Positions 26,213 to 48,816 of a stretch of DNA of 64,000 nt are shown one piece after another. The notes beneath the pieces were generated by a model. That model made no database searches. It saw only the letters and a program-made list of their open reading frames with translations, and was not told where the DNA came from. How positions within the stretch are numbered: position 1 is the first letter of the stretch; every line of letters begins with the position of its first letter. Source of the stretch: a virus. Its lineage: Duplodnaviria; Caudoviricetes. Where the stretch lies: positions 66,282 to 130,281 of IMG/VR virus record IMGVR_UViG_3300027860_000004. The stretch is one strand, 5' to 3'. Position numbers and translations under genes: made by a program.

Positions 26213-26371
26213 CGCTAGGTCCCGGATTTGAACCGGAAACGCCACCTATTTGCTTAGGTCCGAACCTAGATGAAGTAAGAGGATGCTCGCACAACTTTTA
26301 TATGCTGCCGGTCAAGAGAGTCTTATCTCTCACGCTTTGTTTAGGCGGTCCTACTTGTCCACCTACCTAGA
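26213..26371 (-). ncRNA. tRNA-like RNA with about 95-nt insert replacing the anticodon loop
   Basis: Acceptor CTAGGT/ACCTAG, T-arm CCGG-TTCAAAT-CCGG, stem CCGCCTA/TAGGTGG, own promoter and about 20-nt leader. Confidence 0.75.
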
Positions 26372-28517
26372 ACCTTAGTTTGTCACTCTGTGATTAGATT
26401 ATATCTTCTTGAAGAAGTTTTGTCAAAACCCTTTAGTTAGAAGGGTCAACAGATTGGAGTCTAAAGGACCGTGCGGCTTCACGCATTTCGGCAAGCATAT
26501 TCTCTGCTTCACGATAGTCGCTAGGTCCTGGCGCATCCTTTGTATGGTCGCCAAGGATAACTTCAAGGGCAGCAATACGGTTCGGCGTGACCTTTACTGT
26601 TGCTTGGTTAGAAGTATCCATTATTTTTAGATGGTTGCCTTGAAAGAAACCAGGTTGTAAGAGTAGGGCGAGTTCTTGACCAACTCTTCATATTGCGGAC
26701 GAGTAAGGATACCCGCAGCAAGAAACTTTTTGGCGACCTCTACATCGGCCGTAAGTTTCTCGGGAACCTCCACAAAGTTAATCTTGAAGTTCCCCCGCTT
26801 GTTACGGAAGGTGCCGGAAATGAAGGTTTCTTTGTTCTCACCCAGGGCCTTGCGAATGGCCTTAATCTTGGGCTTGAGGTCTTTCTCCAACTTCGTTTCC
26901 GCAGCGGATTTCAGTTCGGAGGTAAGGATATAGTCCCGAAGAACGGCAACGATTTCGGTTTGCGTATCTTCGGTAAGTGCGGTGACACCTTCTGCGGTCA
27001 CGGGCACGATGACTGTTTGGGCGTTTTCGAGAAGTGTGTTGCTCATGTATAAACTATAGACCTTTCAGAGAGTTATTGCAAGCAGCGGTTGTACCCGCTT
27101 TGCCTACGGTGAAGCGAGTATAACATATAAAAAACAAAAAGTCAAGTGCATTCTATTTATTATAGCGTTGAATAAAGAAAAAGGAGGATTTTTTATTTCC
27201 CCTTCTTCTCCTGTTGAAGAAAATAGTTAATGACTTCTGCTACCCGATACTTATGATTGACCCAGGTAATAGTCTCTCTGAAGATAATTTGATACCCTGC
27301 GGGGTATTCTACGATGACAAGGTTTGCATTATCAGTAGGTAAACCTGCTTTAGCAAACTCTTGCTTGATATAGTTTTTTGAGAATTTTACTTGACTAGGA
27401 TTCATTGACAGTAGAAGGTAGAACGATTCGACCATCCCCCACGGCTTCGACCAGCGTGGCAAACATTTCGTTAGATGCCTTCTGTCGGTCAAGGTGACGC
27501 TGCCACGATTCCTGAAAGGCTTTGCTTTCTGCATCGCGATAACCTTTTCGATACTCAGCATCGAGCATTTCATCGAGTTCCGATTGCTTCATCATAACAA
27601 TCGGGTTTTTGTCTGTGTGAATAAGCATATTCTATTTATAGACCTTTCAAGGAGTTAAGTCAAATCTCCATCATGCCCGACAGTAAACATGACAATCTCA
27701 AACATATCACGGGCTTTGATTGCTTTAATTGCTTCGCGTTCTCCTGTGTCGAACCAAATGCAAACCGGAAAAGTTTGTGGAACCTCCATCAAACAATCAA
27801 GTAATTCCCCAACGGTCAAGGCTTGGCTTTCATCGGCCGGTTCTTCATCATAGAGGGGAGGTTCAATCGACTGAGCATTGATTGTAACCATTGACAAAGA
27901 CGGCGAACCCTCTACAGTTTCATAAGAAACATTTGTAAAGAAAGAACCATCATCCACCCGGCATTCAAACTCCGGGTTAGTGTAGAGATTGCGAAGCGTT
28001 TCTCGCAGTTCGCTAACTTTCATTAGCCTTGCAGAACCCCCAAGGTGCCGCAGCCCTTGCAAATATCATCCGGTTCTGGGGGATGACCAAAGTCCTCGAA
28101 AAACATTTCGATTGCTTCTGGGTCATAGTCAAGAGTGATTGTGTTAATCACTTGTCCCTGGTTTTCGCATCCCTTGGTTTCACAAACCACAGAGAAAGTC
28201 ACTTCTTCTAGCATGACCTTATTCTATCAATCTTAAAGAGTTATTGCAAATAAGGAGGCGGAGTTAGTCCCCGCTTGTGAAGCAATCCCAATTCGTTTAG
28301 AACCGCAATAGCAGTAGCCTGCATCCGATACTCATTCCAATCCTTAAAATCAAGTCGATTCTGCGGGGTGCTATTGCGAATGGCTCTCGCAGTTCGTTCG
28401 ATAAGGGCAACTTCTTCATCGGTATAATCCATAGTCAAAACATTATATCAAGAATTAGAAGTTATTGCAAGGGTTGTTATTCAATTTATAATAGAGTAAT
28501 AGTAAAAAAAGAGGCCC

Positions 28518-35504: not shown

Positions 35505-36796
35505 GATTTTATCCTACACCTTTTCTAAAGAAATTACAAATTGGGATTTAGTATATTATAAATTGAATCCACTAATTGCGGGTTGCCGTAACAAGCAAGC
35601 CGCGAACATCGGGAATTCTAACAGAAATATTCGGATTCCAAAGAGTCAACTGATTGCCATGTTTGAGGTAATCAGGAGTTTCTTCAGAATAGCGAAACCT
35701 TGGATATTTGTTTCTGTTGCTTTTACAGTCAAAGCAAATGCTATTCGCTTGTCTATCTTGAGCGGTGTAGGAACCTGTAGTAAGGTAGTCCTCTCGGTCG
35801 CAAGTATCACAGAACCCGAAGGTAGCAGTAACCCCAGAAACATGAGATACCATCTTTGTGTGATAATTGATAACTGTTTTCATTATGACCAAGGACATTC
35901 CTTCCAGGCTTTGAGCCATGCTTCCATCGGTTTACCATTGCCAATGGTTTGAGGAAGTTTCATGCTTTCTTTGTAGCAATCCTTACAGTATGGTTGCCCG
36001 AATTGGGGAGGATTCGGATGCGCTTTACAATGCATAGGCATTTTTGCTTCAAATGCACAAGAGAGAATGAACCATTTATCAGGATTCCCATTCTCACTCA
36101 TCATACATTTTTCGGGACTCAGAGTTAGTTGAAGGTGATAGCCAACTTTATATAGTTCGGCCTTCGTCTCTTCATACTTCTGAGGGGAAACAATAAGAGC
36201 ATCTACCCAATACTCATTGTTCATTCCGCCCCACTTCTTTTTAACTAATTGAATGTCCATACTCAAATTATAGCATTCATTTTTAGTTTAATCAAATGAA
36301 TGGGGTATGATACCGACCGCTGAAAGGTCCTTATTATGGAGAACCGTAGTCTTTTCAGGGTATGCTTCCCATGCTGCCTTGAATGCTACATAGGCCCACA
36401 GAAATCTGCGAATTATATCGGTCATTTGCCGACGTTATCGCCAAAGAGTTTCTTGAGGGTTTCGATAGGACCGAAGGCGCTGAAATAATTATCTTTGTAT
36501 GAGCCCTTGTAATCCCATACACCACAACGCACTCCGTCAACTGTAAAGCCCCAGGAGTATTTAACTTTGTAGGGGTCATCCTTGCAATTAGCAGGGAAAC
36601 CAATAATACTTTTGATTTGTGAGGCACTCAAACCTTTAATGGTATATTGAGCGTGGTCCCCGGCTTCATCTACAGGGAGGACGACAGGTTTTTTATCATC
36701 GGTATTATTATTCATGTACCCATTATATCTTTTAGTGAGAGTTTTTGCAAATTCTTCCAAAGATTTTGATATATGTTCCATTTATTATAGCCTTTA

Positions 36797-36914
36797 TGGT
36801 GGAAATAGAAGGATTCGAACCTTCATATAGTTGACACAAGTATCGCGAATACCTGGTGAGAAGAGACTAGTATTCTCTGTCAACCTGTTTTAATACCACT
36901 TAAACTATATTTCC
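36797..36914 (-). ncRNA. tRNA-like RNA with two-hairpin insert replacing the anticodon loop; encoded CCA
   Basis: Acceptor GGAAATA/TATTTCC-A-CCA, D-arm GTTT/AAAC, T-arm GAAGG-TTCGAAT-CCTTC, stem GTTGACA/TGTCAAC enclosing two hairpins. Confidence 0.88.
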
Positions 36915-36919
36915 CATAA

Positions 36920-37263
36920 AGAGGGCATCATGTCCTTTCCCCTCAGTCTTGCATTGAAATACAACCCGGTAAGATTGCCCTCGCGTTTCTTGCGGTCATG
37001 GGGCGTCTTATCTTAGTAGCAAGTCTTAAAAATTTGGGGCAATCCGGTAACGCCAAGAGGTTGCAACCCCTTTTTGCTTCCCATACGTAGCACATACGAT
37101 TCGGGTTCCTCACAAGCCGCATTGCCATGCCTTGTGAGTCCTGCCTGCCCTGGTTTGTCCGAGAGCCGTAAGAATTCTTGAATGGACAGGAATCATTCAA
37201 GTTGAGTTACGCAGAGGACCAGGATGTAAGGACTTCCGTTTCATGAACCGGCTAGAACCTTAC
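36920..37263 (-). ncRNA. Putative structured ncRNA, about 340 nt
   Basis: Promoter TTGACA-17-TATAAT; helices GTAAGG/CCTTAC, CCTGGT/ACCAGG, TTGAATG/CATTCAA, CTCACAAG/CTTGTGAG, GATTGCCC/GGGCAATC. Confidence 0.7.
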
Positions 37264-37301
37264 AAACTCATTATACTATTTGAATTTAGTTTTGTCAATT
37301 T

Positions 37302-37476
37302 AGATAATCGCCTCGGTGGAGGTTAGGCTCCTCCAATATCCCTTAACTCTCGCCATGTTTTTCCTTGCGGAACCCATCTGCTTCAAACGAGCGCAGGCTG
37401 ATAGACTTCGGTTGTCTATCTTAGGGCCTCTTTATTTTATTATCCGATACTACCGAATTTATTCCGGCGACCATCT
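37302..37476 (-). ncRNA. Putative 175-nt ncRNA with paired 5' and 3' ends
   Basis: Promoter TTGACA-17-CATAAT; 11-bp closing stem AGATGGTCGCC/GGCGATTATCT; internal GATAGAC/GTCTATC, TTCC-GCAA-GGAA, GGAGG/CCTCC. Confidence 0.75.
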
Positions 37477-37570
37477 AAAACTATTATGCCATTTTCATTT
37501 AGTTTTGTCAAGTACGGTTCCAACAGTAGGCGTGGAGAAAAAGTAGACGCCTAGTTTTACTATGATACGC

Positions 37571-37753
37571 TAGGGCATACAGGGCTCGAACCTATATTTC
37601 CCGATGTTCCCCCAAGCACAAACCGCCAAGTCTGAGCCACCTAATCATTCTCTTGCTTACTTTTTCGTAGTTGGCGCTAGGAATTTCAGCATGGATTGAT
37701 TCAGATTCAAGGGGTACTAGTCAAGGCGTTTTGTCCATTTAAACGAATGCCCC
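37571..37753 (-). ncRNA. tRNA-like RNA with about 110-nt pseudoknotted insert in the anticodon arm
   Basis: Acceptor GGGGCAT/ATGCCCT-A, D-arm GTTT-AAATGGACA-AAAC, T-arm ATAGG-TTCGAGC-CCTGT. Confidence 0.8.
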
Positions 37754-37759
37754 ATTCCC

Positions 37760-37988
37760 GTATCACGCCCATTGGACTGATTACTACACCTTCTGTAGTT
37801 TGATTTGAGAAGGTTTTCCTACTTCTCACCGGGTCGAGACATGTCCCGGAGGCTAGTTGTAGCGTCCCATTTAAGGGATACCAATGAACTCGAAGCACCG
37901 TGGGAGTATCTCATTGGCTGTCAGCAACGTCGTCTTGGGTGCTACCTGCTTCTCGGTTATTTTGTGACCAAGCGTTTCCGCTCACCAC
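37760..37988 (-). ncRNA. Putative structured ncRNA, about 230 nt, co-transcribed upstream of the tRNA-like RNA
   Basis: Promoter TTGACA-17-TAAGAT; GAGCG-GAAA-CGCTT, CCAATGA/TCATTGG, CCGGG/CCCGG, TGAGAAG/CTTCTCA, ACTACA/TGTAGT. Confidence 0.65.
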
Positions 37989-38466
37989 ATTTATATCTTA
38001 TACTATTTGGAGAGTTTTGTCAAATCCTTTTTGTTTAATTCAAAAAAGAATCTCCTGCCATGACGCCATGAAACTTTATGACTCTTGCAGGAGCAATAAT
38101 TGAAACGCTTCAAACTGTCCCCTTCTCAACTGCATAAATATACGCAGCAGAATCTTTACGACTTGAAGTAGGAGAAGAATCTGAATACAACTCTTTATAA
38201 TCCGCAGGACGCCCAGCAGCAAGGTTCTCTGCTCGTCTACGCTTGATTAAGGCTTTCTGTCTAGCAATAGCCTCCGCATCTTCAGGACCCAACAGAGCGG
38301 CAAGGAAGCCATCTACAATGCCATTTGCAGCATCTTCTTCAATGGTAGTCTCTCGCTTTGGTTGAAGGTCTACTTCGATATATTTCATTTTCAAAAGTAG
38401 TGTATCAATCTCTTACAGTTATTGCAAACAACAACAACAACAACATTCTATTTATTATATACAGCA

Positions 38467-38534
38467 GAACAGGAAACCAAGCGTATACTCTTGGCTCCCT
38501 ATCTGTGTAGTAGTCCTCATGGAGTGAGCGACTT
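38467..38534 (-). ncRNA. Putative small RNA, about 70 nt
   Basis: Promoter TTGACA-17-TATACT; hairpin AGTC(G)CTCA/TGAGGACT followed by a terminator hairpin. Confidence 0.45.
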
Positions 38535-38589
38535 GCATTTAGTATACCAAAGAGGAGCAGTTTTGTCAAGAACTGCCCCTCCCTGTATT

Positions 38590-39561
38590 CTAGACCTCTA
38601 CGAGGTACTTGAGGACTTCATCCTTCAAGGGTTCATCAAAGGTGCGGATATACTTGCGTTCGAGCGCACCGTTCGGGTTGTCCTTGGTTTGGTTAGTAGC
38701 CCGGTCATGGTCGAGGTAATCAACCGTGGCATTCCAGAGGCCGTAGGCGGTATCACGCACGTTCGCGATATCGGCAGCATTGAGCGCCTTATTGAACAGG
38801 TTACGACCCTTTTCAATTTCGGTTTCCTTGCGCTTACCAATCGACATTTCGGGAAGAGGAAGGAGGATTTGGTCACGAACGAATTCGATTTCCTTCGTGG
38901 TGACAGGCTTCTTGAGAAGGCCATTCATCACATCTTCAAACTTCGTGAAGTAATCTCCCGAGATTTTCAGAACGTCACGGGCCGCAAGAACCAGAGTGTT
39001 GGTATCCATTTGGTTCCCGATATGCTTGACACGGAAGGTATTCTTTGCACCTTGCAAGGCAGCAGTAAGGGTATTTTGGCAAACCACCCGAACCGGAGTA
39101 ATCACGCAGATAAAGGAACCTTTGCCGTCGTGATGATTCAGAAGCAGGATGTAACGAGAGATTTCATCCCCGGCAATTTTAGTGATGTTAGGAAGGCGCA
39201 TCAGAATCCATACGCGCTGCCCATTATCGAACGTGCCCGCCGTTTCAAAGAGGGACTCGTTCTGGATGCCCGTAATCGCCTCTGCGAGATTAAAGGCTTC
39301 TTCATTCTGAAGAGGTTTGTAGCGTTTCGTAACCGTACCGAGGATACGCTTCTCATCCATACGCACGACATTGAATGCGCCGTGATTCGGGATGAATTCT
39401 TCGCCGACTTTGGCATAAGAAGGATGGAGTTCTACAGTCCAATCAAGGCCACCAAGAACGCGGGCTTGAAGGGCGTTTAAGTCATGGTCGGGCACAACGC
39501 CAAGACCATGCCACGGGGTTTCACGAACGGAGACGATGGAAGTGATATTTCCAGCCGACAT
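38590..39561 (-). CDS. DUF932 (phage/plasmid TIGR03299-type) protein
   Basis: VRETPWHGLG, GLDWTVE, LG.V..RY.PLQNEEAF, ETAG....G.RVW, L.N.HDG, TPVRVVCQNTL; start placed at MSAGN. Confidence 0.9.
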   Translation of the reverse strand: MSAGNITSIVSVRETPWHGLGVVPDHDLNALQARVLGGLDWTVELHPSYAKVGEEFIPNHGAFNVVRMDEKRILGTVTKRYKPLQNEEAFNLAEAITGIQNESLFETAGTFDNGQRVWILMRLPNITKIAGDEISRYILLLNHHDGKGSFICVITPVRVVCQNTLTAALQGAKNTFRVKHIGNQMDTNTLVLAARDVLKISGDYFTKFEDVMNGLLKKPVTTKEIEFVRDQILLPLPEMSIGKRKETEIEKGRNLFNKALNAADIANVRDTAYGLWNATVDYLDHDRATNQTKDNPNGALERKYIRTFDEPLKDEVLKYLVEV

Positions 39562-40597
39562 ACTTTGTTCTTTATTCCTTTCAGGAGTTGGGGAGAACAA
39601 AATGATAGTACCAACTTCTGGTAGATAATGCAAGTGCCAATTTTTAGAGTGGTCCTATTTATTATAAGACTGAACAGGTTTTCAAGGATTTTACTCCTCG
39701 AAAACCTCAGACTCATCTACTCCATGATACATGAAGTAAACAAGCGTACTACAAACCAGAATCCACAACAAAGTCATCATGATTAAATTTGTTGAAACTT
39801 CTTATTGAATTTTTGACTATAGTGTTCCAACTTCATGTCCAAATAGGGCTTACCTTCGGGGGTATTATACCAATTTGGAATTCCTGCCAGGTTGTCATTC
39901 TTACAACGAACCATTAATTCTGCAAGTTCATCGGCAGTTAGGACTTGCGAAGTAGGCGTAAAGAATTCTACGCGGTCCGAAGAAATAAATTCTGCTTGGC
40001 AGATGAAAGTTCCAGGTTTAAATGGATAGACGTTTTCTCCATCCATGATAAGGAAATTCCAACCATTTTCAAATTTCAATTCCATATTTAAATTGTACCA
40101 TCCTTTTTAGGTTTTTGCAAACGCTGGTTCTCTTCTTCTTCTGCTGCATATTCAGGAATCTCAAACCGCTGTTCGTAAAGCCTTTGATACAGTTTATTAT
40201 AATTAAAAGCCGGATACGTACCCCTGTAGGGGTTATAGCAAGGCTTACCTGTTGGCGAAATGATTTTCAATGGAATTAACTACTAGTTTTTTTGTAGTCA
40301 TCAAAATCTTTGAAAGGACCTTGAGGACGCAAAGCCTCGCGCACGATATATTCCATTTCTGAAATGGCTGCGTCATCAGGAGTTTCATCAGCATCTTCGC
40401 CACGTTGACGAATGGCTTCCTTAACAAACCTTTTAGAAGGTTTGATTCCTGCTACATCAATTAAAGTAGCAACGACAATCTGAGCAATATCTTCGGGTTC
40501 CATAGTAACGAGGTTTGTTTCTTCGTTGTATTTTGGAGCAAATTCGATATCTTCTGTGTTTTCCATATCCTCATTATACCATTTGAGTTCAGAAAAA

Positions 40598-41230
40598 TCA
40601 AGCCGCAATCTTCAAAGGAATAGCAGGCTGACGCTTTAGTTTTTCAACCCTATGAGACTTTGTAAGACGAATCCATGCCAACCAGCATATTGCCTGCAAT
40701 TCATAGGGACGCAAACCAAACTTCTTGGCAGCAATCTTATATGCACTAGCAATAGTGTCATAATCAGTATCAGTTAGGGACCAAGGTTCAGAACGCTTGC
40801 CCATATAGATTGAAAATGCATGAATGTCTACAGTAACTTCTTTTGATTCTGTATAGCCAATATTATGACAGAATGAACGCACCTTCTTGCTAGTATACGC
40901 AAGCGAAGGATTGTTCTCACGAAGAATTCTAAAGGCTTTTTCCTTATTCTTTGTGAAAGTCCCAACTCGAATAGATTCTGGACCTCGACCTTCTGAATTT
41001 GCTTGGAGAACCGTAACCAAATCCTTTAGGTTCTGTTTCCATTTATTTCGCGGAGAAAGGGCCGCAAGAACCGCAATAGCAGTATCAAGAGGAACATTAA
41101 ACTTACCTGCGGCTTCAGCACAATATGCGCGAGCCACAAGATACCAATTCAATCCATCAATTTTTTCTGCTGCGGTGGCCTGTTCATAGACCTTTAGAAT
41201 ATTGGCAATTCCTGTACGCTTATTTTTCAT
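40598..41230 (-). CDS. DUF7178-like phage protein (possibly HhH-glycosylase related)
   Basis: G.NWY..A, AVLAALSPRNKW..N, K..SF..NI, VTVDIHA, Y..IA.AY, LQAI.W. Confidence 0.65.
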   Translation of the reverse strand: MKNKRTGIANILKVYEQATAAEKIDGLNWYLVARAYCAEAAGKFNVPLDTAIAVLAALSPRNKWKQNLKDLVTVLQANSEGRGPESIRVGTFTKNKEKAFRILRENNPSLAYTSKKVRSFCHNIGYTESKEVTVDIHAFSIYMGKRSEPWSLTDTDYDTIASAYKIAAKKFGLRPYELQAICWLAWIRLTKSHRVEKLKRQPAIPLKIAA

Positions 41231-41344
41231 ATCGAAAAGATTATATCAGATTGAAAAAGTTATCGCAAGGGCTTGCTCGCTTCTGTTTTATTTATAATAT
41301 ATTTAATTAAAAAGAGGGCTCCTTGTTGTAAGGAGCCCCCTTTA

Positions 41345-42004
41345 TTAAAGTGAACAGTAAATCGGTTCTTTCATTTTGATTGCCCTCTTCAAGAAGGTAA
41401 CCAACGCTTTTTGACGAGACTTGAAGTAAGCAGAATTCTTCTCAAACTCTTTCTGATACTCTTCTGCTTGTTCTTTGGCATACTTTTGATAGGTTGTATT
41501 ATCTTTAAGTTTACGTTCAATGACCTGTTTAAGGTCAATTTCGAAGTCTAACTTTTTGAGAAGTTCTTTTGCTTGTTCAGGATGAAGATAATTTGCAGAA
41601 TGTTCATCCCCATCAAAAGGGCATTCTTTATCTTCACGCAAAGGGCAAGGCGTTCCATCTTCGTGACGGAGCATCGGAGACACATCTTGCCACCAAGAGA
41701 AGTAACCAAGGCTAGAAAGTCCCCAACTATTGTAGGGGTCTCGGAAATATCCGCCACCATCATTCATGGCTTTATAGTATTTATTAACTTTCTTCTGAGC
41801 ATCATTCAGAAGTTTAACTTTTTCCCGAAGTGCTGCGGGAGGTCGTGGAGTAGGACGAATTCCCCAAACATCTTTCATGTAAGGTTGGACTTCAGGAAAT
41901 TTATTCGCTATATCATCGCGCGTTTTGACCGCAATATTGAAAAGAGGTTTGTACTTTGCATCCTGCTTTTGAGAAATGCTTTCGATATAAAGGTCCGCTC
42001 CCAA
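41345..42004 (-). CDS. Conserved phage hypothetical protein
   Basis: MGADLYI...YFRDPYN...FSWWQDV...IYCSL. Confidence 0.65.
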   Translation of the reverse strand: MGADLYIESISQKQDAKYKPLFNIAVKTRDDIANKFPEVQPYMKDVWGIRPTPRPPAALREKVKLLNDAQKKVNKYYKAMNDGGGYFRDPYNSWGLSSLGYFSWWQDVSPMLRHEDGTPCPLREDKECPFDGDEHSANYLHPEQAKELLKKLDFEIDLKQVIERKLKDNTTYQKYAKEQAEEYQKEFEKNSAYFKSRQKALVTFLKRAIKMKEPIYCSL

Positions 42005-42083
42005 ATCTTTCTCCTTGAATTCTTGTGAAGTAGTTGTGGACTAATTATAGCAATGATTTTTAGTTATTGCAAACCACAACTAC

Positions 42084-42569
42084 TTACCAAGAAGCCTGGT
42101 AGTAGAAACTACAGTCGCGGGCTGCTTCATCTTCAAGAAGGAATTTAAGACGGTCCCTAGTGTATTCCAAGTCATGGAGATAGTATTCGTCAATTTCGGT
42201 ACTACCAAAAAAGAACCCAGACTGAGGAGTAAGAAGTTCCTCTGCCTTTTCAAAATCTCCAGCCTTATAGGCTTCGATTGCTTGAACACAGGTATCCCGA
42301 AGTTTTTCGAGTTGTTCTCTTTCAACATACGAACGTTGACATTCATCCTTACCATCTTGAACATTTTGGACAAACCAAGAATGAATCGCATTCGCTTTAC
42401 GCCAATAAGCAACAGTCACTTCGACATAAATGCTAGGCGTAGACTTCTCAAGAAGATGAGTCATGTTGGATGCTTCTAAAACAAGAGGAACCATCTTCTT
42501 GTCTGTCTCACTTGAGAACTCGTAGTTCGAGGCGTATTTTTCCGCCATGAGGTACATATCTAATCCCAT
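42084..42569 (-). CDS. Conserved phage hypothetical protein
   Basis: MGLDMYL, YWRKANAIHSWFV, LL.PQSGFFFGSTE.DEYY, YYQASW. Confidence 0.8.
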   Translation of the reverse strand: MGLDMYLMAEKYASNYEFSSETDKKMVPLVLEASNMTHLLEKSTPSIYVEVTVAYWRKANAIHSWFVQNVQDGKDECQRSYVEREQLEKLRDTCVQAIEAYKAGDFEKAEELLTPQSGFFFGSTEIDEYYLHDLEYTRDRLKFLLEDEAARDCSFYYQASW

Positions 42570-42676
42570 GTACGTACTATATCAAAACCTGTAAGTTATT
42601 GCAAATACATACATGCGCGTTCAATTTATTATATTTATGAAAAAAATCAGCCTGCTTATTAGGCAGGCTGCTGTGT

Positions 42677-43408
42677 TTACAACTTCTCAGTTTTGATAAG
42701 GTCGTTTTCGAGAAGAAGTCTCAAAACTTCCGGGAGAGGTTCTTCACCTTCATAGGCATTTAGAGGGTCCCCAGGAGTCTTGAAGCGAGTATACAACTTC
42801 TCATAATTAGACTTTACATTATTAATTTTACGAAGAAAGAAGGTTTGAAGATATTTATTTTCCCAAATAGTGGCGTCTACATTGTAGATTGCATTTGAGT
42901 ATTCGTTGTTAATATACGAACTCAAAATTTGAGTGGCATTATCTTGAATATCTGCCCCATCCATTTCACCATCATCGCCAAATTCTTCACCCCGCCAGCG
43001 AACACTTCCAGAAACTTTATACCCCCAGGGTGTCAAGAAGTTGTGGCAAATGTAGGCAAACCATTCCTTGTATCTGTAGAATTTTTCTCCGCCATCCCAT
43101 TCAATACCTTGAAGGTCTTGTGTAGGAACCCATTGACACCAAAGGCCAGGTTGAGTACGAGGAGGTTCATTGTAGTCAATAACGCTAGTTAATATTGCTT
43201 CATTAATATCATCGCCTACATAAAATTCTCCATCAATACCTGGAGGCAAATGAACGGCAATTCGAACTTCATCAGGAAGAATAGCAGTTGCTTTCTGACT
43301 ACGAAACATTCTTCGGGTATCAGCAAACTTTTTTAAATAAAGTGCTTGGTTTTGAGTTAAAGGTCTGTCTAAATCAAACCGACCACGGAATTGAGTGTCA
43401 TAACCCAT
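42677..43408 (-). CDS. Conserved phage hypothetical protein
   Basis: MGY.T.F.G.F.LD.PL, QPGLWCQW, WDGGEKFY motifs. Confidence 0.75.
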   Translation of the reverse strand: MGYDTQFRGRFDLDRPLTQNQALYLKKFADTRRMFRSQKATAILPDEVRIAVHLPPGIDGEFYVGDDINEAILTSVIDYNEPPRTQPGLWCQWVPTQDLQGIEWDGGEKFYRYKEWFAYICHNFLTPWGYKVSGSVRWRGEEFGDDGEMDGADIQDNATQILSSYINNEYSNAIYNVDATIWENKYLQTFFLRKINNVKSNYEKLYTRFKTPGDPLNAYEGEEPLPEVLRLLLENDLIKTEKL

Positions 43409-44788
43409 TATAAATTAAAAACCTTTGCCCTTTCAGGATTTACAGGAAGTTTAATACCCTTGACCGTTACATGGATATCTTCAGAGATATCCTGGCAGAT
43501 AAATCCAGGCGAACAAGGACACGCACAGCCTGCGTAGTGCGACCATCGAATGCCCTTTATAGGCACATCAATGTTTAGTTGCTTAAAAACCTCTGGAAGA
43601 AGTTTTCGGTATTCCTTGTGAGGTTCGACACCCCGAGCCACAAGCATATCAAAGACGCCTGCGCCTTGTACAAAGAAGTAAATTCGACCATTTCTCTTTC
43701 GATAATTGCGCCGATTGGCAGGAGAAAAGAATTTCGCTTTCACAATTTCTAACATATGAGTATCTTACATTATTTTTGAAGTTATTGCAAATGCTGATTA
43801 GTCCCTACTACATTAAGAGACAGGTTCAATGTAGTAGAGACTAAATCTTATAAACTTCTTCGGGACGCACTTCATGGACATAGGACATAGCCCGGCGAAC
43901 GGTTCTATCCGTTTCGTCCACAAGATGGCATATTGTGAAATGAATGTCTGATTCAAATAACGAAGCCTTCAACTTCTGAATCATAGAAGGAGGACCCTGC
44001 AACTTCTCTAAGAAGGAGGGTTTTAGTAAGGGCGTGTTAGCCCTATGAGAGGTCGTACAGCAACCTCTCCGGCAGCGAAGTTCCTTCTCATATGTTACAT
44101 CAATATGATTGGGAGTGAGTAATTCGGAATCAACATGTTCTAAAAACATATTGACATTATATCATATTTGAAGTGTTTAGTCAAAGAATGAAGCATAAGA
44201 TAATTGATAAGAATACCACAGCAATCTGTCCATCTTATCAAGAACTCCTACATTATGACCGCGCTTCTTCATTTCGTTGAAGAAGTGACCCTTGTAGCGT
44301 TCAGTATCTGTAATGGCATCTTCAACACCAAGTATCTTGGCATCGTTAATAGCCTTGAATTCTGCTTCAGTAAATTGAGTCATGATTATATTCTATCAAA
44401 AATGAACAGTTTAGTCAAAAGCATCCATATTTCGTTTAGGATTACTTGAACGCTTATCAGCAGGATTCTTATGATATCCTGTGCCTCTGTTGGCTTTAAA
44501 AAAGTCCTGAAGCTCCTCGGGAGTCATTTTATGCTTGCTTGGAGCAGAAGGCTTTTCAAGTTTGATGACATTTTTATCAGGCTTGACTTTTGGTTCCCAC
44601 ATTTTCCCTTTACCGCCAAGTGAAATAAGTCTGGTTAAAAGTTTCGGTATCATTATATCATATCTCTCCAGAAATTGCAATCTTCAATCTATAATAATCA
44701 AGAAGAGAAAGAATGGAGCCCTGGTGAGGGAAGGCGGAACCTCACCAGGGCTCTTGGACAAGCCTAAGACGGAGTTTGCAGGGTCGTC

Positions 44789-45688
44789 TTAGGCTACGTT
44801 TTGTTCGAGAGGTGAACCCTTCCAAGCAATGGGTTTCCAATGCTTAGGATTACCCCGACGAGGTTCACAACCGATTGCTTTCAACTGAGCGGATACTTCA
44901 GCAGGGTACATACCCAATTCGGCCGCGAACGTACCAACCGGAACCAAGTCTTCAAGGTGACGCTTGGCCATCTTCTGAAGAGTTTCGTTGTCAATAGTTA
45001 CAACTTCCTTCTTCATACGGGGAGCCCTATCCTCCTTGGGAGCCTTTTCAACCGGAGTACGATTCTCTGCCCTTACGGCGCGAGCCTTAGCCAACGCTTC
45101 GGGATTCGAATTACCTCGCTTGATGGTTCGGCCCTGTTCCTTCAAGTAGTTTGAGATATAGGTAGGTTGTACATTGTATTCTTTAGAAAGAACCACGACA
45201 CCGTTACCTTTATCAAACTTTTCAAGGACTTCAGCAAGTTCAGTAGAATCCAGAGCAAGTCGCGTAGTACGCACTCGACCACGTTTGCCCTTCTCGCCTG
45301 TACGTGCAGCCGTTCCCAAATTCTTTTCTGCGGATTCATTTTCAATTGTAGAATCAGGTTCCGAAATCCGAGAAGAAGAAGATTTTTCTTGATTCTTATA
45401 GAAGGTTTGCCAATCTTCTGCATTCATGAACTTGGTTCCATAACCAGGACGATGTTTACAGAAGTTGTACATAAACCCACAAGATTTGCAGAAGATTTGG
45501 TCATGACGAGCAATCTCATCAATCTTATCCCAGGGAATCTCTTCTGCAAATAAACCAATGCCAGATTGTTCAGAGTAAGGCTTGTTTGCCAACTTGGCAA
45601 TAGCCATACTTTCTGCAACAGCCGCCTCCAGCATGTCGTTTATTTCTTGAACAGAAAGAACACTACGAGAAGTATTATTGTTTTCCAT
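44789..45688 (-). CDS. Hypothetical protein, possibly with two HTH-like segments
   Basis: Leaderless promoter; LSKEYNVQPTYISNYLK and FAAELGMYPAEVSAQLK, each followed by RGN. Confidence 0.55.
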   Translation of the reverse strand: MENNNTSRSVLSVQEINDMLEAAVAESMAIAKLANKPYSEQSGIGLFAEEIPWDKIDEIARHDQIFCKSCGFMYNFCKHRPGYGTKFMNAEDWQTFYKNQEKSSSSRISEPDSTIENESAEKNLGTAARTGEKGKRGRVRTTRLALDSTELAEVLEKFDKGNGVVVLSKEYNVQPTYISNYLKEQGRTIKRGNSNPEALAKARAVRAENRTPVEKAPKEDRAPRMKKEVVTIDNETLQKMAKRHLEDLVPVGTFAAELGMYPAEVSAQLKAIGCEPRRGNPKHWKPIAWKGSPLEQNVA

Positions 45689-46071
45689 GACCAGATTATA
45701 GCAAGGTCTTTAAGTTATGTCAAACAACCACTACTGCAAATAGATTATTAATTTGTTGAACAATAAAGAATCTATCACCAGGTTCTATTTGTTCTTTAAG
45801 ACAAAAGTTTAAAGATTCATCTAGAAGATTTCGATAGGTTATATGTTCTCCTTCTTCATTGGTAACTCCATACCATTTATCTTTAATTCGAGAAGGAACC
45901 TTAGCAACTACCTTATGGTCCTTAAATGCTACTTGACCTAACTCGGGAGTTGTTGTGCGAGGGGTAACATGAAATACAGATTCAAAAATAGAATTGAACC
46001 AACCTGGATATTCATTCTCCTTTTTTTGAATCTTAGATTGAATTCTTTTTAATGTTCTTAGAGTTGAAAGT

Positions 46072-46470
46072 TCATCCATGAGAGCGATAACGCTTGGGAG
46101 TAGGAGTATTAGATACCATATGAAAATTCTTATGTTTAGCCCATTCACGTACTAGACGTTTACCTTCTGGGTTAGAAGATTGACAACGAATAATATGGTT
46201 ATCAGGCGTGAACTCGTTATGAAAAAGTTTCTCGTCAATAAAATTCAACACAGGACGAATCGTATCATCCCCGCCTAAATCATGGTCCAACCACAATTCA
46301 GAAATATTAGGCCATTGTTTCTCTATGAAATCAATAGCAGCCTCACTTGATTTAGCATGGATGACTAACTTTCCATCATAAGAATTCTGATAGATTCTAT
46401 CATCATCAATTACTAAAATAAGTTTTCGAGGCAAAATAGTATCGGCGAGAAGGTTCATAACAAATAACAT
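46072..46470 (-). CDS. Cyclic-phosphate-processing receiver-like (cREC) protein
   Basis: LVIDDDR, SEAAI, LWLDHDLGGDDT, SSNPEG. Confidence 0.7.
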   Translation of the reverse strand: MLFVMNLLADTILPRKLILVIDDDRIYQNSYDGKLVIHAKSSEAAIDFIEKQWPNISELWLDHDLGGDDTIRPVLNFIDEKLFHNEFTPDNHIIRCQSSNPEGKRLVREWAKHKNFHMVSNTPTPKRYRSHG

Positions 46471-46536
46471 TGTAGCATTTCCAAATAGTTATTTCAAGTA
46501 GTCCCTACTACTCTATAATAAATAGAACATCAAATG

Positions 46537-46759
46537 AAAAAACCGAGGTCATGACTCTCGGTTGTTCCACGCTCTTGTACTTCGAACTTGCACCGTGATG
46601 CTTACGCTGTATCACCCTTGCCAGGGTTCAAGCGTCTGCAATTTACCATCCTAAACATTCGGAGGCTGTGCCAGCCCGGCCAATTTCATAACACGCATGG
46701 CCCTGACGTATCCGTTCAATACCCCACAGAAACTGAACGGACAAGTGTTTCTGTTTCGC
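46537..46759 (-). ncRNA. Putative ncRNA, about 220 nt, with a strong 5' H-type pseudoknot
   Basis: Promoter TTGACA-17-TATTAT; ACAGAAAC/GTTTCTGT and TCCGTTCA/TGAACGGA interleaved; terminator ACCGAG/CTCGGT-U run. Confidence 0.75.
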
Positions 46760-47222
46760 ATCTATATAATATCAGATGCAGGGTGTTTTGTCAAACCTTG
46801 GGGTTAAGAATTTTGATTCGAAGAAGAGTGCCGTATACAAGTTCGAAGCGATATTCTTTTTGTGCTTCGTTCAAACGAGCAAGCAAAGCAGGCAGAGTAA
46901 CAAGACGAGGAATCGCATTCGCTTCTTGTGAAGAAGGACCAGGAACCCAAACGAATTTATCTTTACCAGCACTCTTCACAGTACCAACATTTTTAATGGG
47001 ACCGAAGAGATATTGAATGACCCGAATGATTTGTTTACGGTTATCAATACTAGAATTAATGTTTAGGACATATTGCCCATTCTTTTGTTGGACAGTCTTT
47101 TTAAAAAAATTACCGTCTAAAGTATGAGCATTAACAGAGGACGAATCAATAGTTGAAGAAGTATTCATACACCTATCTTAGAAGAAGTTTGCAAGTTTTG
47201 TCAATTATTACTTTAAAAAATA

Positions 47223-47298
47223 TGGTAGGGCTAAGAGGATTCGAACCCCTTCCTCAAGCTTAGAAGGCTCGCGCGCTGTCCCATTACACCATAGCCCC
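47223..47298 (-). tRNA. tRNA-Arg(TCT)
   Basis: Cloverleaf, loop CTTCTAA, GGTTCGAATCC, CCA. Confidence 0.88.
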
Positions 47299-47714
47299 GC
47301 GCCTACTGTTTCTAAAATTTTCTATTGTGAAAAGAAATGGGACGAGGATTACCCTTTACAAAATGCCCTTCTGCATGAACAGGACAAGAAATAACAATTC
47401 CTCCTTCAGGAATTACCATTGAAAGAGGTTGACCAGCAGTACATTGATTAACCATTTTTATCTTTCCCTTCAATATCTAAGATAGAGAATAAATGAATTT
47501 CTTGAGCAGTAAACATAACCAGGTAAGTAAGTTCACGACCAGGAACACTATCTGCGTACTTCGCAAAGATGGGGCGAAGGGCCTCTTCAACTTCACGGGA
47601 AACTTCGTGGGCCTTCTTAGTCCAATCCCTTTGACGAGGCCCGGTAAAAACACTTTCGACAATATCCATGAAAGAATTCTATCAACTAAATTTAGTTATG
47701 TCAAATAATAATCA

Positions 47715-47791
47715 TGGTGGGCCTGGTGGGACTTGAACCCACTTAAGTCTGCTTAAAAGGCAGCGGCGTCGTCTACTTCAGCTTCAGACCC
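47715..47791 (-). tRNA. tRNA-Lys(TTT), atypical D-arm
   Basis: Loop CTTTTAA, GGTTCAAGTCC, CCA. Confidence 0.8.
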
Positions 47792-47807
47792 ATAAAGATT
47801 TTTGATG

Positions 47808-48263
47808 CTAAGAAACTACATGAATTTTGCATCCATTACAATTCTTTTTTCTGCATCTTGGTCTTATTTTTCTATTGTTTTTATTATACTCTTTATAAAA
47901 ATTCTTACAAATTTCACATCGACAATATTTGTAAGAACTTATAGTTCCATGAATATCTTTACCTTTTACTTCTTGAAATCCTTTTTCTAAAATTGTTTTC
48001 GTATTATGACAAGGTTTACAAAGTAATTGACATTTTTTACATTCTTCAACGGCTTTGTCATATGCCATTGTATTTAATTGTGCTATAGTAAATGATTTAG
48101 TATTAGGGTCAATATGGTCAAATTCTAATTGATTTACTGAACCACATACCATACATTTACCTCCAAGCAATTCTATTAACTTGGCACGTTTTTTATGATA
48201 TTTTTCGAGCATATACTTACGCATGTACTCGTTATAAAATTCTTTATTATCTCTTTTTCTCAT
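47808..48263 (-). CDS. HNH endonuclease
   Basis: LGGKC..CGS...LEFDHIDP, KCQLLC..CH..KT. Confidence 0.85.
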   Translation of the reverse strand: MRKRDNKEFYNEYMRKYMLEKYHKKRAKLIELLGGKCMVCGSVNQLEFDHIDPNTKSFTIAQLNTMAYDKAVEECKKCQLLCKPCHNTKTILEKGFQEVKGKDIHGTISSYKYCRCEICKNFYKEYNKNNRKIRPRCRKKNCNGCKIHVVS

Positions 48264-48305
48264 ACTTATATGATAGTTAAGTATGATTTGCTTTTTTATA
48301 AAAAT

Positions 48306-48384
48306 TGGTGAGTGCGGAGAGACTTGAACTCTCTAAATCTCCGACTTAAAAGGACGGGGCATGGACCACTTTTGCTTCGCACCC
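48306..48384 (-). tRNA. tRNA-Lys(TTT), second divergent copy
   Basis: Loop CTTTTAA, U-U mismatch in anticodon stem, AGTTCAAGTCT, CCA. Confidence 0.78.
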
Positions 48385-48438
48385 ATAACCATTGATTATA
48401 AAAAAATCATATTTTTAAAGTTTGAAATAAAGATTTTG

Positions 48439-48512
48439 TGGGCATTGCTGGATTTGAACCAGCGCGCAACTCGTTATGAGCAAGCCGCTCTACCAGACTG
48501 AGCTAAATGCCC
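48439..48512 (-). tRNA. tRNA with CAT anticodon (Ile2 or elongator Met)
   Basis: GGGCATT/AATGCCC acceptor, TAGCTCAG, loop CTCATAA; no encoded CCA. Confidence 0.85.
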
Positions 48513-48520
48513 AGGAAAAT

Positions 48521-48596
48521 TGGTCCTGCGTGAGAATTTTGCAATCTCAACCCCCGCCTTATAAAGACGATGCTCTAACTTTTGAGCTAACGCAGG
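48521..48596 (-). tRNA. tRNA-Ile(TAT) with non-canonical T-loop
   Basis: CCTGCGT/ACGCAGG-A-CCA, TAGCTCA, loop TTTATAA, T-loop TGCAAAA. Confidence 0.75.
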
Positions 48597-48816
48597 ATGA
48601 TTATTAGTTTATCAAGTTTTCAATGATTACTTCAAACAATTCCTACAAAGCAGGAGGGCTCCCTGTACCTTCATAGTTTTTACACATTCTTTGCATGGAC
48701 TAACTCCACATCTATCACATCGTAGAAAGAGTTTCATTGTAGGCTTTCTACATAATTTACATATCTTCATCTGTTGCTAGTCTAGCAAGTCTTCTTATGT
48801 AAAGTCAATTAACTTA

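What the first reader, a model, noticed from the sequence alone, without database searches (positions are those of the whole stretch)
36797..37988. 1.2-kb all-RNA locus with a repeated design: structured RNA followed by a tRNA-like RNA
Seen: three back-to-back promoters (-35 at 38018, 37506, 37293). Units 1 and 3 are a 230- or 340-nt structured RNA immediately followed by a tRNA-like element. The same arrangement recurs at 55036-55300. Inference: RNase P cleavage at the tRNA-like 5' end would define the 3' end of the upstream RNA, as in MALAT1/mascRNA-style or tRNA-punctuation processing.
Basis: partly seen in the sequence, partly recalled or inferred. Interest (0 to 1): 0.72.

Follow-up and report, generated by a model that had tools for sequence, protein, structure and literature searches.

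The report
Phage RNA operon with interrupted tRNAs
A 1.2-kb protein-free stretch of an uncultured phage is transcribed from three strong promoters and holds two tRNA-shaped RNAs whose anticodon loops carry extra inserted RNA, a design of unknown purpose that also turns up in many other phages.

Summary
The locus is real and lies on the minus strand of a 130-kb uncultured myovirus from a moss metagenome. Three promoters carry the phage's own extended -35 motif (TTGACAAAACT). No ORF inside the locus has coding-like codon usage. Metatranscriptome contigs from two runs cover parts of it.

The anatomy needs revising. Both "tRNA-like elements" are complete tRNA bodies with canonical acceptor, D and T arms, but their anticodon loops are interrupted. 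Element A (36914-36797) ends in CCA and carries a 40-nt insert. ARAGORN in intron mode calls both, and calls none in 20 shuffles of the window. An RNA contig spans B's insert unspliced.

Cleavage by RNase P at these bodies is plausible but nothing here shows it. The upstream "structured RNAs" have no homologues, no Rfam match (GOLLD, ROOL and mascRNA included) and unremarkable folding energies. Only the middle unit folds better than shuffles.

Whether the inserts are retained (a natural tRNA scaffold) or spliced out (tRNA-Thr) remains open. The closest precedents are the "enigmatic introns" of Lak megaphage tRNAs and the T4 tRNA-region RNAs C and D. A partial scan of IMG/VR found 97 more insert-bearing tRNAs. 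I rate it a new variant of a known kind, of moderate interest.

The parts
38042..38093 (-). Terminator-like hairpin (7-bp GC-rich stem, long loop) followed by a T-run. It closes the upstream gene (stop codon at 38110) before promoter 1.
   Evidence: Read by eye.
37995..38023 (-). Promoter P1: TTGACA, 17-nt spacer, TAAGAT, with the phage's extended -35 motif TTGACAAAACT. The start site is inferred at about 37988.
   Evidence: 10 of 12; exact 11-mer.
37755..37988 (-). Unit-1 leader RNA, about 234 nt, with no credible ORF.
   Evidence: ORFs score negative. Fold z = -1.35. No Rfam hit at E <= 10.
37569..37754 (-). tRNA body B. It has canonical acceptor, D and T arms and a 5-bp anticodon stem. ARAGORN reads it as Thr(AGU). 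CCA is not encoded.
   Evidence: ARAGORN intron mode. The cloverleaf appears in the unconstrained MFE fold. RNA contig 37550-37736 in run X3.
37606..37714 (-). 109-nt insert in B's anticodon loop, after position 37. It is predicted to extend the stem and then branch into two hairpins.
   Evidence: The arm's z-score is -0.43, which is not significant. The X3 RNA contig contains the whole insert and no joint was reported.
37483..37511 (-). Promoter P2: TTGACA, 17-nt spacer, CATAAT, with TG before the -10 hexamer.
   Evidence: (11 of 12).
37299..37476 (-). Unit-2 RNA, about 178 nt. The fold is multi-branched and closed by pairing between the 5' and 3' ends. An RNA 5' end was observed at 37461.
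   Evidence: Fold z = -3.06, 0 of 200 shuffles as stable. RNA contigs from X3 and X4 both stop at 37461, and in X3 adapter letters follow directly.
37270..37298 (-). Promoter P3: TTGACA, 17-nt spacer, TATAAT.
   Evidence: (12 of 12).
36915..37263 (-). Unit-3 leader RNA, about 349 nt, with no credible ORF.
   Evidence: Fold z = -0.73. RNA contig 37052-37461 covers its 5' 212 nt.
36797..36914 (-). tRNA body A. It has canonical acceptor, D and T arms and encodes a 3' CCA. ARAGORN reads it as Thr(UGU).
   Evidence: Rfam tRNA 44.9 bits. ARAGORN intron mode. MFE fold is a cloverleaf, z = -2.18.
36841..36880 (-). 40-nt insert in A's anticodon loop. The anticodon stem extends to 8 bp and then branches into two hairpins.
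   Evidence: Arm z = -2.24, with 7 of 300 shuffles as stable.
36422..36781 (-). First protein gene downstream (119 aa, unknown function). Its start codon lies 15 nt after the CCA of A and no strong promoter lies between them, so it is probably co-transcribed.
   Evidence: Codon log-odds +0.28. Relatives found in 5 viral loci and 7 metagenome loci.
55001..55299 (+). Second site with the same outline: promoter, about 190 nt of ORF-free RNA, then a weak tRNA-like element at 55227-55299.

Best explanation
This is a transcribed, non-coding, multi-promoter RNA operon in the early region of an uncultured myovirus.

Three promoters of the phage's own consensus type fire in the same direction. No intrinsic terminator was detected between them. 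RNA polymerase therefore makes overlapping precursors that run through leader 1, tRNA body B, unit 2, leader 3 and tRNA body A into the next small gene.

A and B are complete tRNA bodies. The host's tRNA-maturation enzymes (RNase P at the 5' side, 3' trimming, and CCA addition for B) should recognise them and cut the precursor at their borders.

My preferred reading, at about 0.4, is that the inserts stay in. On this reading the tRNA body acts as a natural scaffold that gives defined ends and stability to a branched two-hairpin RNA domain sitting where the anticodon loop should be. These 118-nt and 186-nt RNAs, rather than the leaders, would then be the main products. They cannot decode. A role as decoys or binders of tRNA-recognising proteins is possible but speculative.

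What is shown: the promoters, the non-coding character, the tRNA bodies with their inserts, transcription of the locus, and the presence of B's insert in RNA. What is inferred: the start sites, cleavage by RNase P, retention of the inserts in the mature RNA, and any function.
For: Promoters. Non-coding character.

tRNA bodies: Rfam 44.9 bits for A. ARAGORN intron mode calls exactly two insert-bearing tRNAs in the 130-kb genome, and both lie in this locus. It calls none in 20 dinucleotide shuffles of the window, 1.28 Mb in all. The cloverleaf with a branched anticodon arm is the unconstrained MFE fold of both elements.

Transcription: in two metatranscriptome runs, all 7 phage-like RNA contigs laid on 19.6 kb fall on five places. 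Two of these places are in this locus: 37052-37461 (X3) with 37311-37461 (X4), and 37550-37736 (X3). Contig 37550-37736 contains the whole 109-nt insert with 22 and 56 nt of exon on either side, and no joint was reported. Contig 37052-37461 bridges promoter 3.

Against a decoding role for A: after removal of the 40 nt, the anticodon loop would be CUUGUGU, with G at position 37. From my own knowledge, tRNAs that read ANN codons carry A37.

No splicing endonuclease (PF01974) and no RtcB (PF01139) was found in the record. A relative's genome, G005, has a tRNA-like gene with a 62-nt insert that also folds into two hairpins.
Against: No RNA end was observed at either tRNA border.

Contig 37550-37736 runs 19 nt past B's 3' end, so at least some of the RNA seen is unprocessed precursor. 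Standard RNA-seq libraries under-sample 75-nt mature tRNAs (my own knowledge). An unspliced contig therefore does not exclude splicing.

B's anticodon loop after removal of the insert would be a textbook CUAGUAA, with the insert at the canonical 37/38 position.

B's arm is no more stable than shuffles (z = -0.43), and neither is the B region as a whole (z = +0.46).

No homologue of either insert was found, so there is no covariation evidence.

The record is only 78% complete, so absent enzymes prove little. An RNA ligase family protein is present.
Confidence: 0.4

Rival explanations
1. A and B are genuine intron-bearing tRNA-Thr genes (UGU and AGU), of the kind reported as 'enigmatic introns' in Lak megaphage tRNAs. 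An unknown host or phage activity removes the inserts and the halves are ligated. The mature tRNAs supply A/U-ending Thr codons for an AT-rich phage, and the upstream RNAs are merely long leaders.
For: ARAGORN finds an anticodon loop in both elements. In B it is CUAGUAA, with the insert at the canonical 37/38 position. In both pre-tRNAs the anticodon pairs with the insert, as it does in eukaryotic pre-tRNAs (my own knowledge).

The phage's other tRNAs all read A/U-rich codons. ARAGORN calls Leu UAA, Arg UCU and Met CAU. I read Ile UAU and two Lys UUU-type loops by eye from the folds.

The phage backbone is about 32% GC.

Insert-bearing tRNAs sit inside ordinary phage tRNA arrays elsewhere. Devoto et al. 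2019 report introns in phage tRNAs, including a tRNA-Thr(TGT) (PMC6784885, passages seen).

An RNA ligase family protein (PF09414) and a small AAA_33 kinase are encoded.
Against: No spliced form was seen, although contigs cannot show absence.

A would have G37. The two inserts sit at different loop positions (31/32 in A, 37/38 in B) and share no motif.

The MFE folds show no bulge-helix-bulge motif. No EndA, RtcB or PNK3P was found.

Both genes lie outside the phage's tRNA cluster at 47-48.6 kb.
Confidence: 0.3
2. The 234-nt and 349-nt upstream RNAs are the functional structured RNAs. The tRNA-like element is mainly a signal that lets RNase P form their 3' ends, as for MALAT1 and mascRNA.
For: Each leader has its own strong promoter and is non-coding. 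A tRNA body follows each leader directly. Part of leader 3 is present in RNA. A similar layout occurs at 55001-55299.
Against: The leader folds are not more stable than shuffles (z = -1.35 and -0.73). There is no Rfam match at E <= 10, including GOLLD, ROOL and mascRNA-menRNA. No homologue was found in 50,697 phage records, in the relatives, or in the pattern scans.

The tRNA parts are not minimal by-products; they carry large inserts. No RNA end was seen at the predicted cleavage sites.
Confidence: 0.15
3. The locus is a decaying remnant. Former tRNA genes were disrupted by insertions, and spacer DNA is transcribed only because strong early promoters happen to lie there. It has no function of its own beyond driving the downstream gene.
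For: The locus has no homologues. The neighbouring 119-aa gene has relatives in 12 loci (5 viral; 7 metagenome). In the 16 loci then held, which include these 12, ARAGORN called no insert-bearing tRNA and blastn found no match to the locus. In the 9 loci I listed, ORFs of 70 aa or more fill the DNA upstream of the gene's relative. B's insert has an unremarkable folding energy.
Against: Every stem and every tertiary-contact base of both tRNA bodies is intact, which is unexpected for pseudogenes. A encodes CCA. The RNAs from this locus were assembled in runs where most of the 19.6 kb gave no RNA contig. Unit 2 is markedly structured. A second sample (X2) yields 28 of 33 laid contigs at 99% identity or more, and no differences were listed.
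Confidence: 0.1

Closest known systems
'Enigmatic introns' in the tRNAs of Lak megaphages (Devoto et al. 2019, PMC6784885; abstract and passages seen; supplements closed)
   Same: These are phage tRNA genes that only an intron-aware tRNA finder recognises, with inserts in the anticodon loop. One affected tRNA is a Thr(TGT). The same genomes have large, highly expressed intergenic regions. Neither the fate nor the mechanism of the inserts is known.
   Different: Lak phages are 540-kb Prevotella phages that use an alternative genetic code. Here the phage is a myovirus of 130 kb or more with sigma-70-type promoters. The two genes lie outside the tRNA cluster, each behind its own promoter and a long leader. 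I could not compare sequences with the Lak introns because they are in the supplements. The inserts here lack the hairpin-plus-CAGCAA module that I found in many other viral contigs.
Phage T4 tRNA region with the stable RNAs C and D (PMC3014915 and PMC9697503; passages seen)
   Same: A phage produces small stable non-coding RNAs of unknown function that lie next to tRNA genes.
   Different: No sequence or structure comparison was made here. That T4 RNA C and D are matured by tRNA-processing enzymes is my recollection, not something I saw in the passages.
MALAT1 / mascRNA and MEN-beta (Rfam RF01684)
   Same: A long non-coding RNA is followed directly by a tRNA-shaped element at which RNase P would cut (biology recalled).
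   Different: RF01684 gives no match in the locus at E <= 10. mascRNA is a reduced 61-nt tRNA mimic in a eukaryotic nucleus. The elements here are full tRNA bodies enlarged by inserts, in a phage.
Engineered 'tRNA scaffold' for expressing recombinant RNA in E. coli (Ponchon and Dardel 2007; recalled, not read here)
   Same: A foreign structured RNA replaces the anticodon loop, and an intact tRNA body supplies processing and stability. This is the architecture predicted for A and B.
   Different: The scaffold is a laboratory design. No natural example was verified here, and retention of the inserts in the mature RNA is not shown.
GOLLD and ROOL, large ornate RNAs often encoded next to tRNAs in phages (Rfam RF02032; PMC12286853, listing and abstract start only)
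   Same: They are large phage-borne non-coding RNAs near tRNA genes. A relative found through the neighbouring gene carries a GOLLD RNA: L002 8469-8857, 161.1 bits against a gathering score of 150.
   Different: Rfam gives no match to either family in the locus, even at E <= 10. blastn finds no similarity between the locus and L002.

Membership tests
tRNA (Rfam RF00005) | Score at or above the gathering threshold on the covariance model | tested here: met
   A scores 44.9 bits against a threshold of 29. B is not reported even at E <= 10. ARAGORN finds B only in intron mode.
tRNA (Rfam RF00005) | A contiguous 7-nt anticodon loop closing a 5-bp stem | tested here: not met
   In A, 47 nt lie between the stem strands. 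In B, 116 nt do: the 7-nt loop plus the 109-nt insert.
tRNA (Rfam RF00005) | Conserved core: 7-bp acceptor stem, U8, A14, G18-G19, T loop TTCGA | tested here: met
   Read from the ARAGORN cloverleaves and the Rfam alignment. B has a G1-U72 wobble pair.
Phage tRNAs with 'enigmatic introns' (Lak megaphage type) | A phage tRNA gene recognised only when an insert in the anticodon loop is allowed | tested here: met
   default mode calls none in the locus, intron mode calls two. Control: 0 intron calls in 20 shuffles.
Phage tRNAs with 'enigmatic introns' (Lak megaphage type) | Sequence relationship to the published Lak introns | not testable with these tools
Archaeal/eukaryal tRNA introns | Bulge-helix-bulge motif at the exon-intron borders, and a splicing endonuclease | tested here: not met
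   The MFE folds show no pair of 3-nt bulges separated by a 4-bp helix (inspected by eye). PF01974 is not found in the 130-kb record, although the control search hits 4 archaeal genomes. The record is 78% complete.
Group I intron in a tRNA anticodon loop | An intron of 200 nt or more with a group I core (Rfam RF00028) | tested here: not met
   The inserts are 40 and 109 nt. The locus gives no Rfam hit at E <= 10 apart from tRNA and four weak unrelated matches.
mascRNA-menRNA (RF01684) | Match to the family model | tested here: not met
   No match in 36300-38400 at E <= 10. Elsewhere in the window, 54939-54995 scores 18.9 bits against a threshold of 42.5.
mascRNA-menRNA (RF01684) | RNase P cleavage that releases the upstream RNA's 3' end | not testable with these tools
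   Contigs cannot show RNA ends, and none coincides with 37754 or 36915.
GOLLD (RF02032) / ROOL | Match to the family model | tested here: not met
   No match at gathering score or at E <= 10. The model does detect GOLLD in relative L002.
tmRNA | tRNA-like domain plus a tag-coding region | tested here: not met
   ARAGORN with the tmRNA option finds none in the window. No Rfam tmRNA hit falls in the locus.

The most novel reading that the evidence does not exclude
Phages make natural 'tRNA-scaffolded' RNAs. A complete tRNA body is used as a chassis that host RNase P, 3'-end trimming and the CCA-adding enzyme excise and stabilise. A branched RNA domain inserted in place of the anticodon loop carries the function, for example as a decoy or sponge for tRNA-targeting defence nucleases or other tRNA-binding proteins. 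On this reading the locus is a processing-punctuated operon of such RNAs. The many insert-bearing tRNAs in other viral contigs, including the conserved hairpin-plus-CAGCAA module, would be a widespread and so far uncharacterised class of phage RNA rather than introns.
Probability: 0.3. Interest if true: 0.8.

Novelty: new variant of a known kind. Interest (0 to 1): 0.55.

Why it matters
Phage tRNA genes are usually explained as codon-usage aids or as replacements for tRNAs that host defences cut. This locus holds complete tRNA bodies that cannot decode as transcribed. They are driven by strong early promoters and detected as RNA in the environment.

If the inserts are spliced out, bacteria-infecting viruses have a tRNA-splicing route with no known enzyme. 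If the inserts are retained, phages invented the tRNA scaffold long before RNA engineers did, and they use it for an unknown purpose.

Either answer bears on the 'enigmatic introns' that have stood unexplained since 2019. A partial scan of IMG/VR turned up 97 further examples, so the question is general and not a curiosity of one contig. The locus is short (1.3 kb) and has sigma-70-type promoters, so it can be tested directly in a laboratory host.

Tried and rejected
Homologue searches that found nothing:
- blastn (distant mode) of 36700-38100 against 50,697 phage records gave no match.
- The upstream 347-aa gene has no relative in viral contigs.
- The downstream 119-aa gene gave 5 viral loci and 7 metagenome loci, at 47-69% identity. 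None shares DNA with the locus. ARAGORN called no insert-bearing tRNA in them. In the 9 loci I listed, ORFs fill the DNA upstream of the gene's relative.
- A pattern scan for A's D arm plus T arm gave 0 stretches.
- A scan for the D-arm consensus shared by A and B gave 6 stretches. ARAGORN called only two plain tRNA-Gly genes in them.
- Self-blastn of the locus against the genome found paralogy only between promoters and T arms.

Rfam gave nothing beyond the tRNA hit, whether at gathering score on the window, on the rest of the genome and on the relatives, or at E <= 10 on the locus.

Splicing toolkit: no RtcB, no EndA and no PNK3P. The AAA_33 hit is a generic small kinase, so I draw no conclusion from it.

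Parts of the locus without an RNA contig are 37755-37988, 36797-37051, and the second site at 54612-55900. Absence of a contig is not evidence of silence, and I do not use it as such.

No sequence variants were listed for run X2, so population covariation could not be used.

In L075 I aligned the insert-bearing 'His' gene with the plain tRNA-His next to it. The two are not close copies, so the insert's borders could not be defined this way.

A T-arm-like hairpin in the promoter-driven RNA at 26391-26190 was not called as a tRNA by ARAGORN in either mode. I did not count it.

Supplementary files of PMC6784885, which hold the Lak intron sequences, could not be seen.

Beyond Devoto et al. 2019 I found no paper on the mechanism of phage tRNA inserts in those listings. 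That is not proof that none exists.
Full report
WHERE THE LOCUS LIES. The window is bases 66282-130281 of a 130,281-bp virus record that is estimated to be 78% complete. Pfam finds a tail sheath, a Mu-type portal and a lytic transglycosylase/M23 tail protein in the left half, so the virus is a myovirus. Sequencing-run look-up places near-identical DNA in two moss-metagenome runs, one of which may be the source. Parts of it also occur in two metatranscriptome runs. The finding lies on the minus strand of an early-type region packed with small genes.

THE PROMOTERS ARE REAL AND BELONG TO THE PHAGE. The consensus scan finds -35/-10 pairs at 38023/38000, 37511/37488 and 37298/37275, matching 10, 11 and 12 of 12 positions. 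All three carry the extended -35 motif TTGACAAAACT. Allowing one mismatch, this 11-mer occurs 28 times in the window against 2.9 expected; the most in any of 100 shuffles was 7. Of the 28, 27 are on the minus strand and 25 lie between 14 and 56 kb. A GC-rich hairpin followed by a T-run (38093-38042, read by eye) separates the upstream gene from promoter 1. The terminator scan found nothing between the three promoters or after them.

THE STRETCH DOES NOT CODE. The longest ORFs inside it are 85, 77, 76, 67 and 63 aa, most with TTG or GTG starts. I built a codon log-odds score from 15 long genes of the same region. All 7 ORFs tested inside the locus score negative (-0.11 to -0.19 bits per codon). 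All 11 held-out small flanking ORFs score positive, 0.05 to 0.51.

THE TWO tRNA-LIKE ELEMENTS ARE FULL tRNA BODIES WITH INTERRUPTED ANTICODON LOOPS. Rfam's tRNA model scores 36800-36914(-) at 44.9 bits against a gathering score of 29, with 47 nt inserted between the anticodon-stem strands. Default ARAGORN misses this element. When allowed introns of up to 200 nt, ARAGORN reports two extra genes in the window. Both lie in this locus.
- A is c[36797,36914], with a 40-nt insert and an encoded CCA.
- B is c[37569,37754], with a 109-nt insert after position 37.

The same run over the whole 130-kb genome and over 12 fetched loci adds no further intron call. Twenty dinucleotide shuffles of the window give one plain tRNA call and no intron call.

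Both cloverleaves have a 7-bp acceptor stem, U8, A14, G18-G19, a 5-bp anticodon stem and a T arm with the loop TTCGA. In the unconstrained MFE folds the cloverleaf forms. The anticodon stem then continues into the insert and branches into two hairpins. For A, the whole RNA (z = -2.18) and the arm alone (z = -2.24, 7 of 300 shuffles) are more stable than shuffles. For B they are not (z = +0.46; z = -0.43).

THE UPSTREAM RNAs AND UNIT 2. The 234-nt and 349-nt leaders fold no better than shuffles (z = -1.35 and -0.73). Unit 2 (37476-37299) forms a closed, multi-branched fold with z = -3.06, and 0 of 200 shuffles are as stable. At E <= 10 Rfam reports nothing in 36300-38400 except the tRNA and four weak unrelated hits. 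There is no GOLLD, ROOL, mascRNA, tmRNA, group I intron or Y RNA.

THE LOCUS IS TRANSCRIBED. I laid two metatranscriptome runs and two DNA runs on 36300-55900. Eight RNA contigs were laid: six from X3 and two from X4. One of them (48447-48494) carries 5 other letters in 48, and I set it aside as probably from another organism. The other seven fall on five places:
- 37052-37461 (X3, 410 nt) together with 37311-37461 (X4)
- 37550-37736 (X3)
- 46576-46747 (X3)
- 52212-52405 (X3)
- 54026-54265 (X3, depth 245) together with 54016-54261 (X4, depth 28)

Four of the five places are promoter-proximal and free of ORFs, and two are in this locus. Three points follow.
- Contig 37550-37736 contains the whole 109-nt insert of B, flanked by exon on both sides. 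No joint was reported, so an unspliced form exists as RNA.
- Contig 37052-37461 runs from unit 2 across promoter 3 into leader 3. Reads therefore bridge the units, which fits the lack of terminators.
- Contigs from both runs stop at 37461, and in X3 this position is followed directly by what I recognise (from memory) as Illumina adapter letters. That is a weak hint of a real RNA end 22 nt downstream of the -10 hexamer, more likely a processing site than a start site.

There are limits to this evidence. Contigs cannot show strand, level or ends. Contig 37550-37736 also runs 19 nt past B's 3' end, so it includes unprocessed RNA. No contig end coincides with 37754 or 36915.

NO RELATIVES OF THE LOCUS WERE FOUND. 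Searches of INPHARED, of loci found through the neighbouring 119-aa gene in IMG/VR and in JGI metagenomes, and two pattern scans gave no homologue. In the 9 of those loci whose ORFs I listed, ORFs fill the DNA upstream of the gene's relative. No covariation test of the leaders or of the inserts was therefore possible.

INSERT-BEARING tRNAs ARE COMMON IN VIRAL CONTIGS. One relative (G005, 139 kb, 44 tRNA calls plus a tmRNA) has a tRNA-like gene with a 62-nt insert that also folds into two hairpins. I scanned IMG/VR for a consensus D arm and T arm set 52-82 nt apart, which is too far for a normal tRNA. ARAGORN calls a tRNA with an anticodon-loop insert (5-57 nt) in 97 of the 114, a plain tRNA in 13, and nothing in 4. 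There are 73 distinct inserts of 20 nt or more. At least five of the loci come from giant-virus bins and have tRNA-Tyr introns at the canonical position. Most of the rest look like phage tRNA arrays.

Rfam's tRNA model independently reports genes of 114-127 nt in such arrays, three or four in a row in L044, L106 and L066. Of the 97 inserts, 37 contain CAGCA. In 23 of the 29 distinct examples a hairpin of 6 bp or more, often with a GUNN loop, ends 0-4 nt before that motif. Only 9% of shuffled flanks show this, and the stems differ in sequence while keeping their pairing. A and B lack this module.

The only description in print that I found is that of Devoto et al. 2019. They report Lak megaphage tRNAs with 'enigmatic introns', among them a tRNA-Thr(TGT), and state that introns in phage tRNAs had not been reported before (PMC6784885, passages). 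Two further searches found no later work on the mechanism.

WHAT IT MOST LIKELY IS. The robust part, at about 0.8, is this: a transcribed, non-coding, multi-promoter operon that contains two complete tRNA bodies with structured or at least sizeable inserts. The open point is what happens to the inserts.

I lean slightly towards retention, meaning a natural tRNA scaffold, at 0.4. My reasons are as follows.
- A would have G37 after excision.
- The two inserts sit at different positions in the loop and share no motif.
- No bulge-helix-bulge motif, splicing endonuclease or RtcB was found.
- The genes sit apart from the tRNA cluster, each behind its own promoter and leader.

The intron reading, at 0.3, has real support too.
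- B would regain a textbook CUAGUAA loop, with the insert at position 37/38.
- The Thr anticodons UGU and AGU would fit a set of phage tRNAs that all read A/U-rich codons, in a backbone of about 32% GC.
- An RNA ligase family protein is encoded.

The leaders show neither unusual structure nor conservation. A decaying remnant gets 0.1, because both tRNA bodies are flawless.

VERDICT. Relative to what is known (phage tRNA/stable-RNA operons such as the T4 tRNA region; phage tRNAs with unexplained inserts) this is a new variant of a known kind. Interest is moderate. It rises sharply if the inserts prove to be retained functional domains, or if they reveal a bacterial or phage tRNA-splicing route.

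Noticed in passing
window 53960-54277 (-): This is by far the most abundant phage RNA in both metatranscriptome runs: contigs 54026-54265 (depth 245, X3) and 54016-54261 (depth 28, X4). A perfect 12-of-12 promoter lies at 54311-54283 and a terminator-like hairpin near 53990-53962. The 316-nt fold has z = -3.29, with 0 of 100 shuffles as stable. Rfam gives no match at E <= 10.
   Followed up: partly
window 54939-54999 (+): A 61-nt mini tRNA-like RNA with its own 11-of-12 promoter at 54898. It has an acceptor stem, a T arm and an encoded CCA but no anticodon arm. It aligns to the two ends of the tmRNA model (26.5 bits, threshold 47) and weakly to mascRNA (18.9 bits).
   Followed up: partly
window 46535-46760 (-): A further ~215-nt ORF-free RNA with a phage-type promoter (46794) and a hairpin plus T-run terminator. 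RNA contig 46576-46747 in run X3 covers it. It has no Rfam family at gathering score.
   Followed up: partly
window ~14000-56000 compared with the rest of the 130-kb genome: The base composition is mosaic. About 42 kb has ~42% GC (up to 49-53% near 14-17 kb) and is set in a backbone of 29-36% GC. Of the 28 TTGACAWAACT-type promoter motifs, 25 lie inside the GC-richer block. One Logan contig of run X1, which may be the source sample and so is not independent, spans the right-hand junction.
   Followed up: partly
window 47718-47791, 48309-48384, 48524-48596 (-): Three non-canonical tRNAs that Rfam finds (39-48 bits) but ARAGORN misses. By eye, two have CUUUUAA loops (Lys UUU-like) with odd D arms, and one has a UAU (Ile) loop with an odd T loop.
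   Followed up: partly
A conserved module recurs across many nominal isotypes: a 6-8-bp hairpin, often with a GUNN loop, then 0-4 nt, then CAGCAA. It is present in 23 of 29 distinct CAGCA-bearing inserts against 9% of shuffles. Rfam has no family for it.
   Followed up: partly
G005 (relative record) 59546-59680; L002 8469-8857: Relative G005 carries 44 tRNA calls, a tmRNA, and one tRNA-like gene with a 62-nt two-hairpin insert. Relative L002 carries a GOLLD RNA (161.1 bits), which ends about 1.4 kb before a tRNA-Lys.
   Followed up: partly
window 3005-6825 (+) and genome 61734-62273 (-): A cluster of genes that look like RNA or nucleic-acid repair functions: a 2OG-Fe(II) oxygenase (AlkB-like fold family), an ATP-grasp R2K protein, and an RNA ligase family protein with a PHA02142 OB domain. 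A small AAA_33 kinase lies elsewhere in the genome.
   Followed up: partly
window 52880-53200 (-): Two tandem, similar units. Each has an A/T-rich upstream stretch and a TTGACA(G/T)(G/A)ATTTCGGTTCTATG(C/T)TATAAT promoter, followed by a short hairpin RNA. One ends in a hairpin plus T-run (read by eye).
   Followed up: no
window 52229-52561 (+): A visibly GC-rich 110-aa ORF on the opposite strand to its neighbours, with no Pfam family. RNA contig 52212-52405 covers its 5' part.
   Followed up: no
genome 50850-53201 (-) (L009 10850-13201): A 783-aa ORF with weak Hint/intein-type domain hits, both below Pfam's cut-offs. It may be an intein-containing gene.
   Followed up: no
window 26190-26391 (-): A promoter-driven (26426), ORF-poor ~200-nt RNA that contains a perfect T-arm-like hairpin (CCGG-TTCAAAT-CCGG). 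ARAGORN does not call it a tRNA in either mode. Fold z = -1.35.
   Followed up: partly
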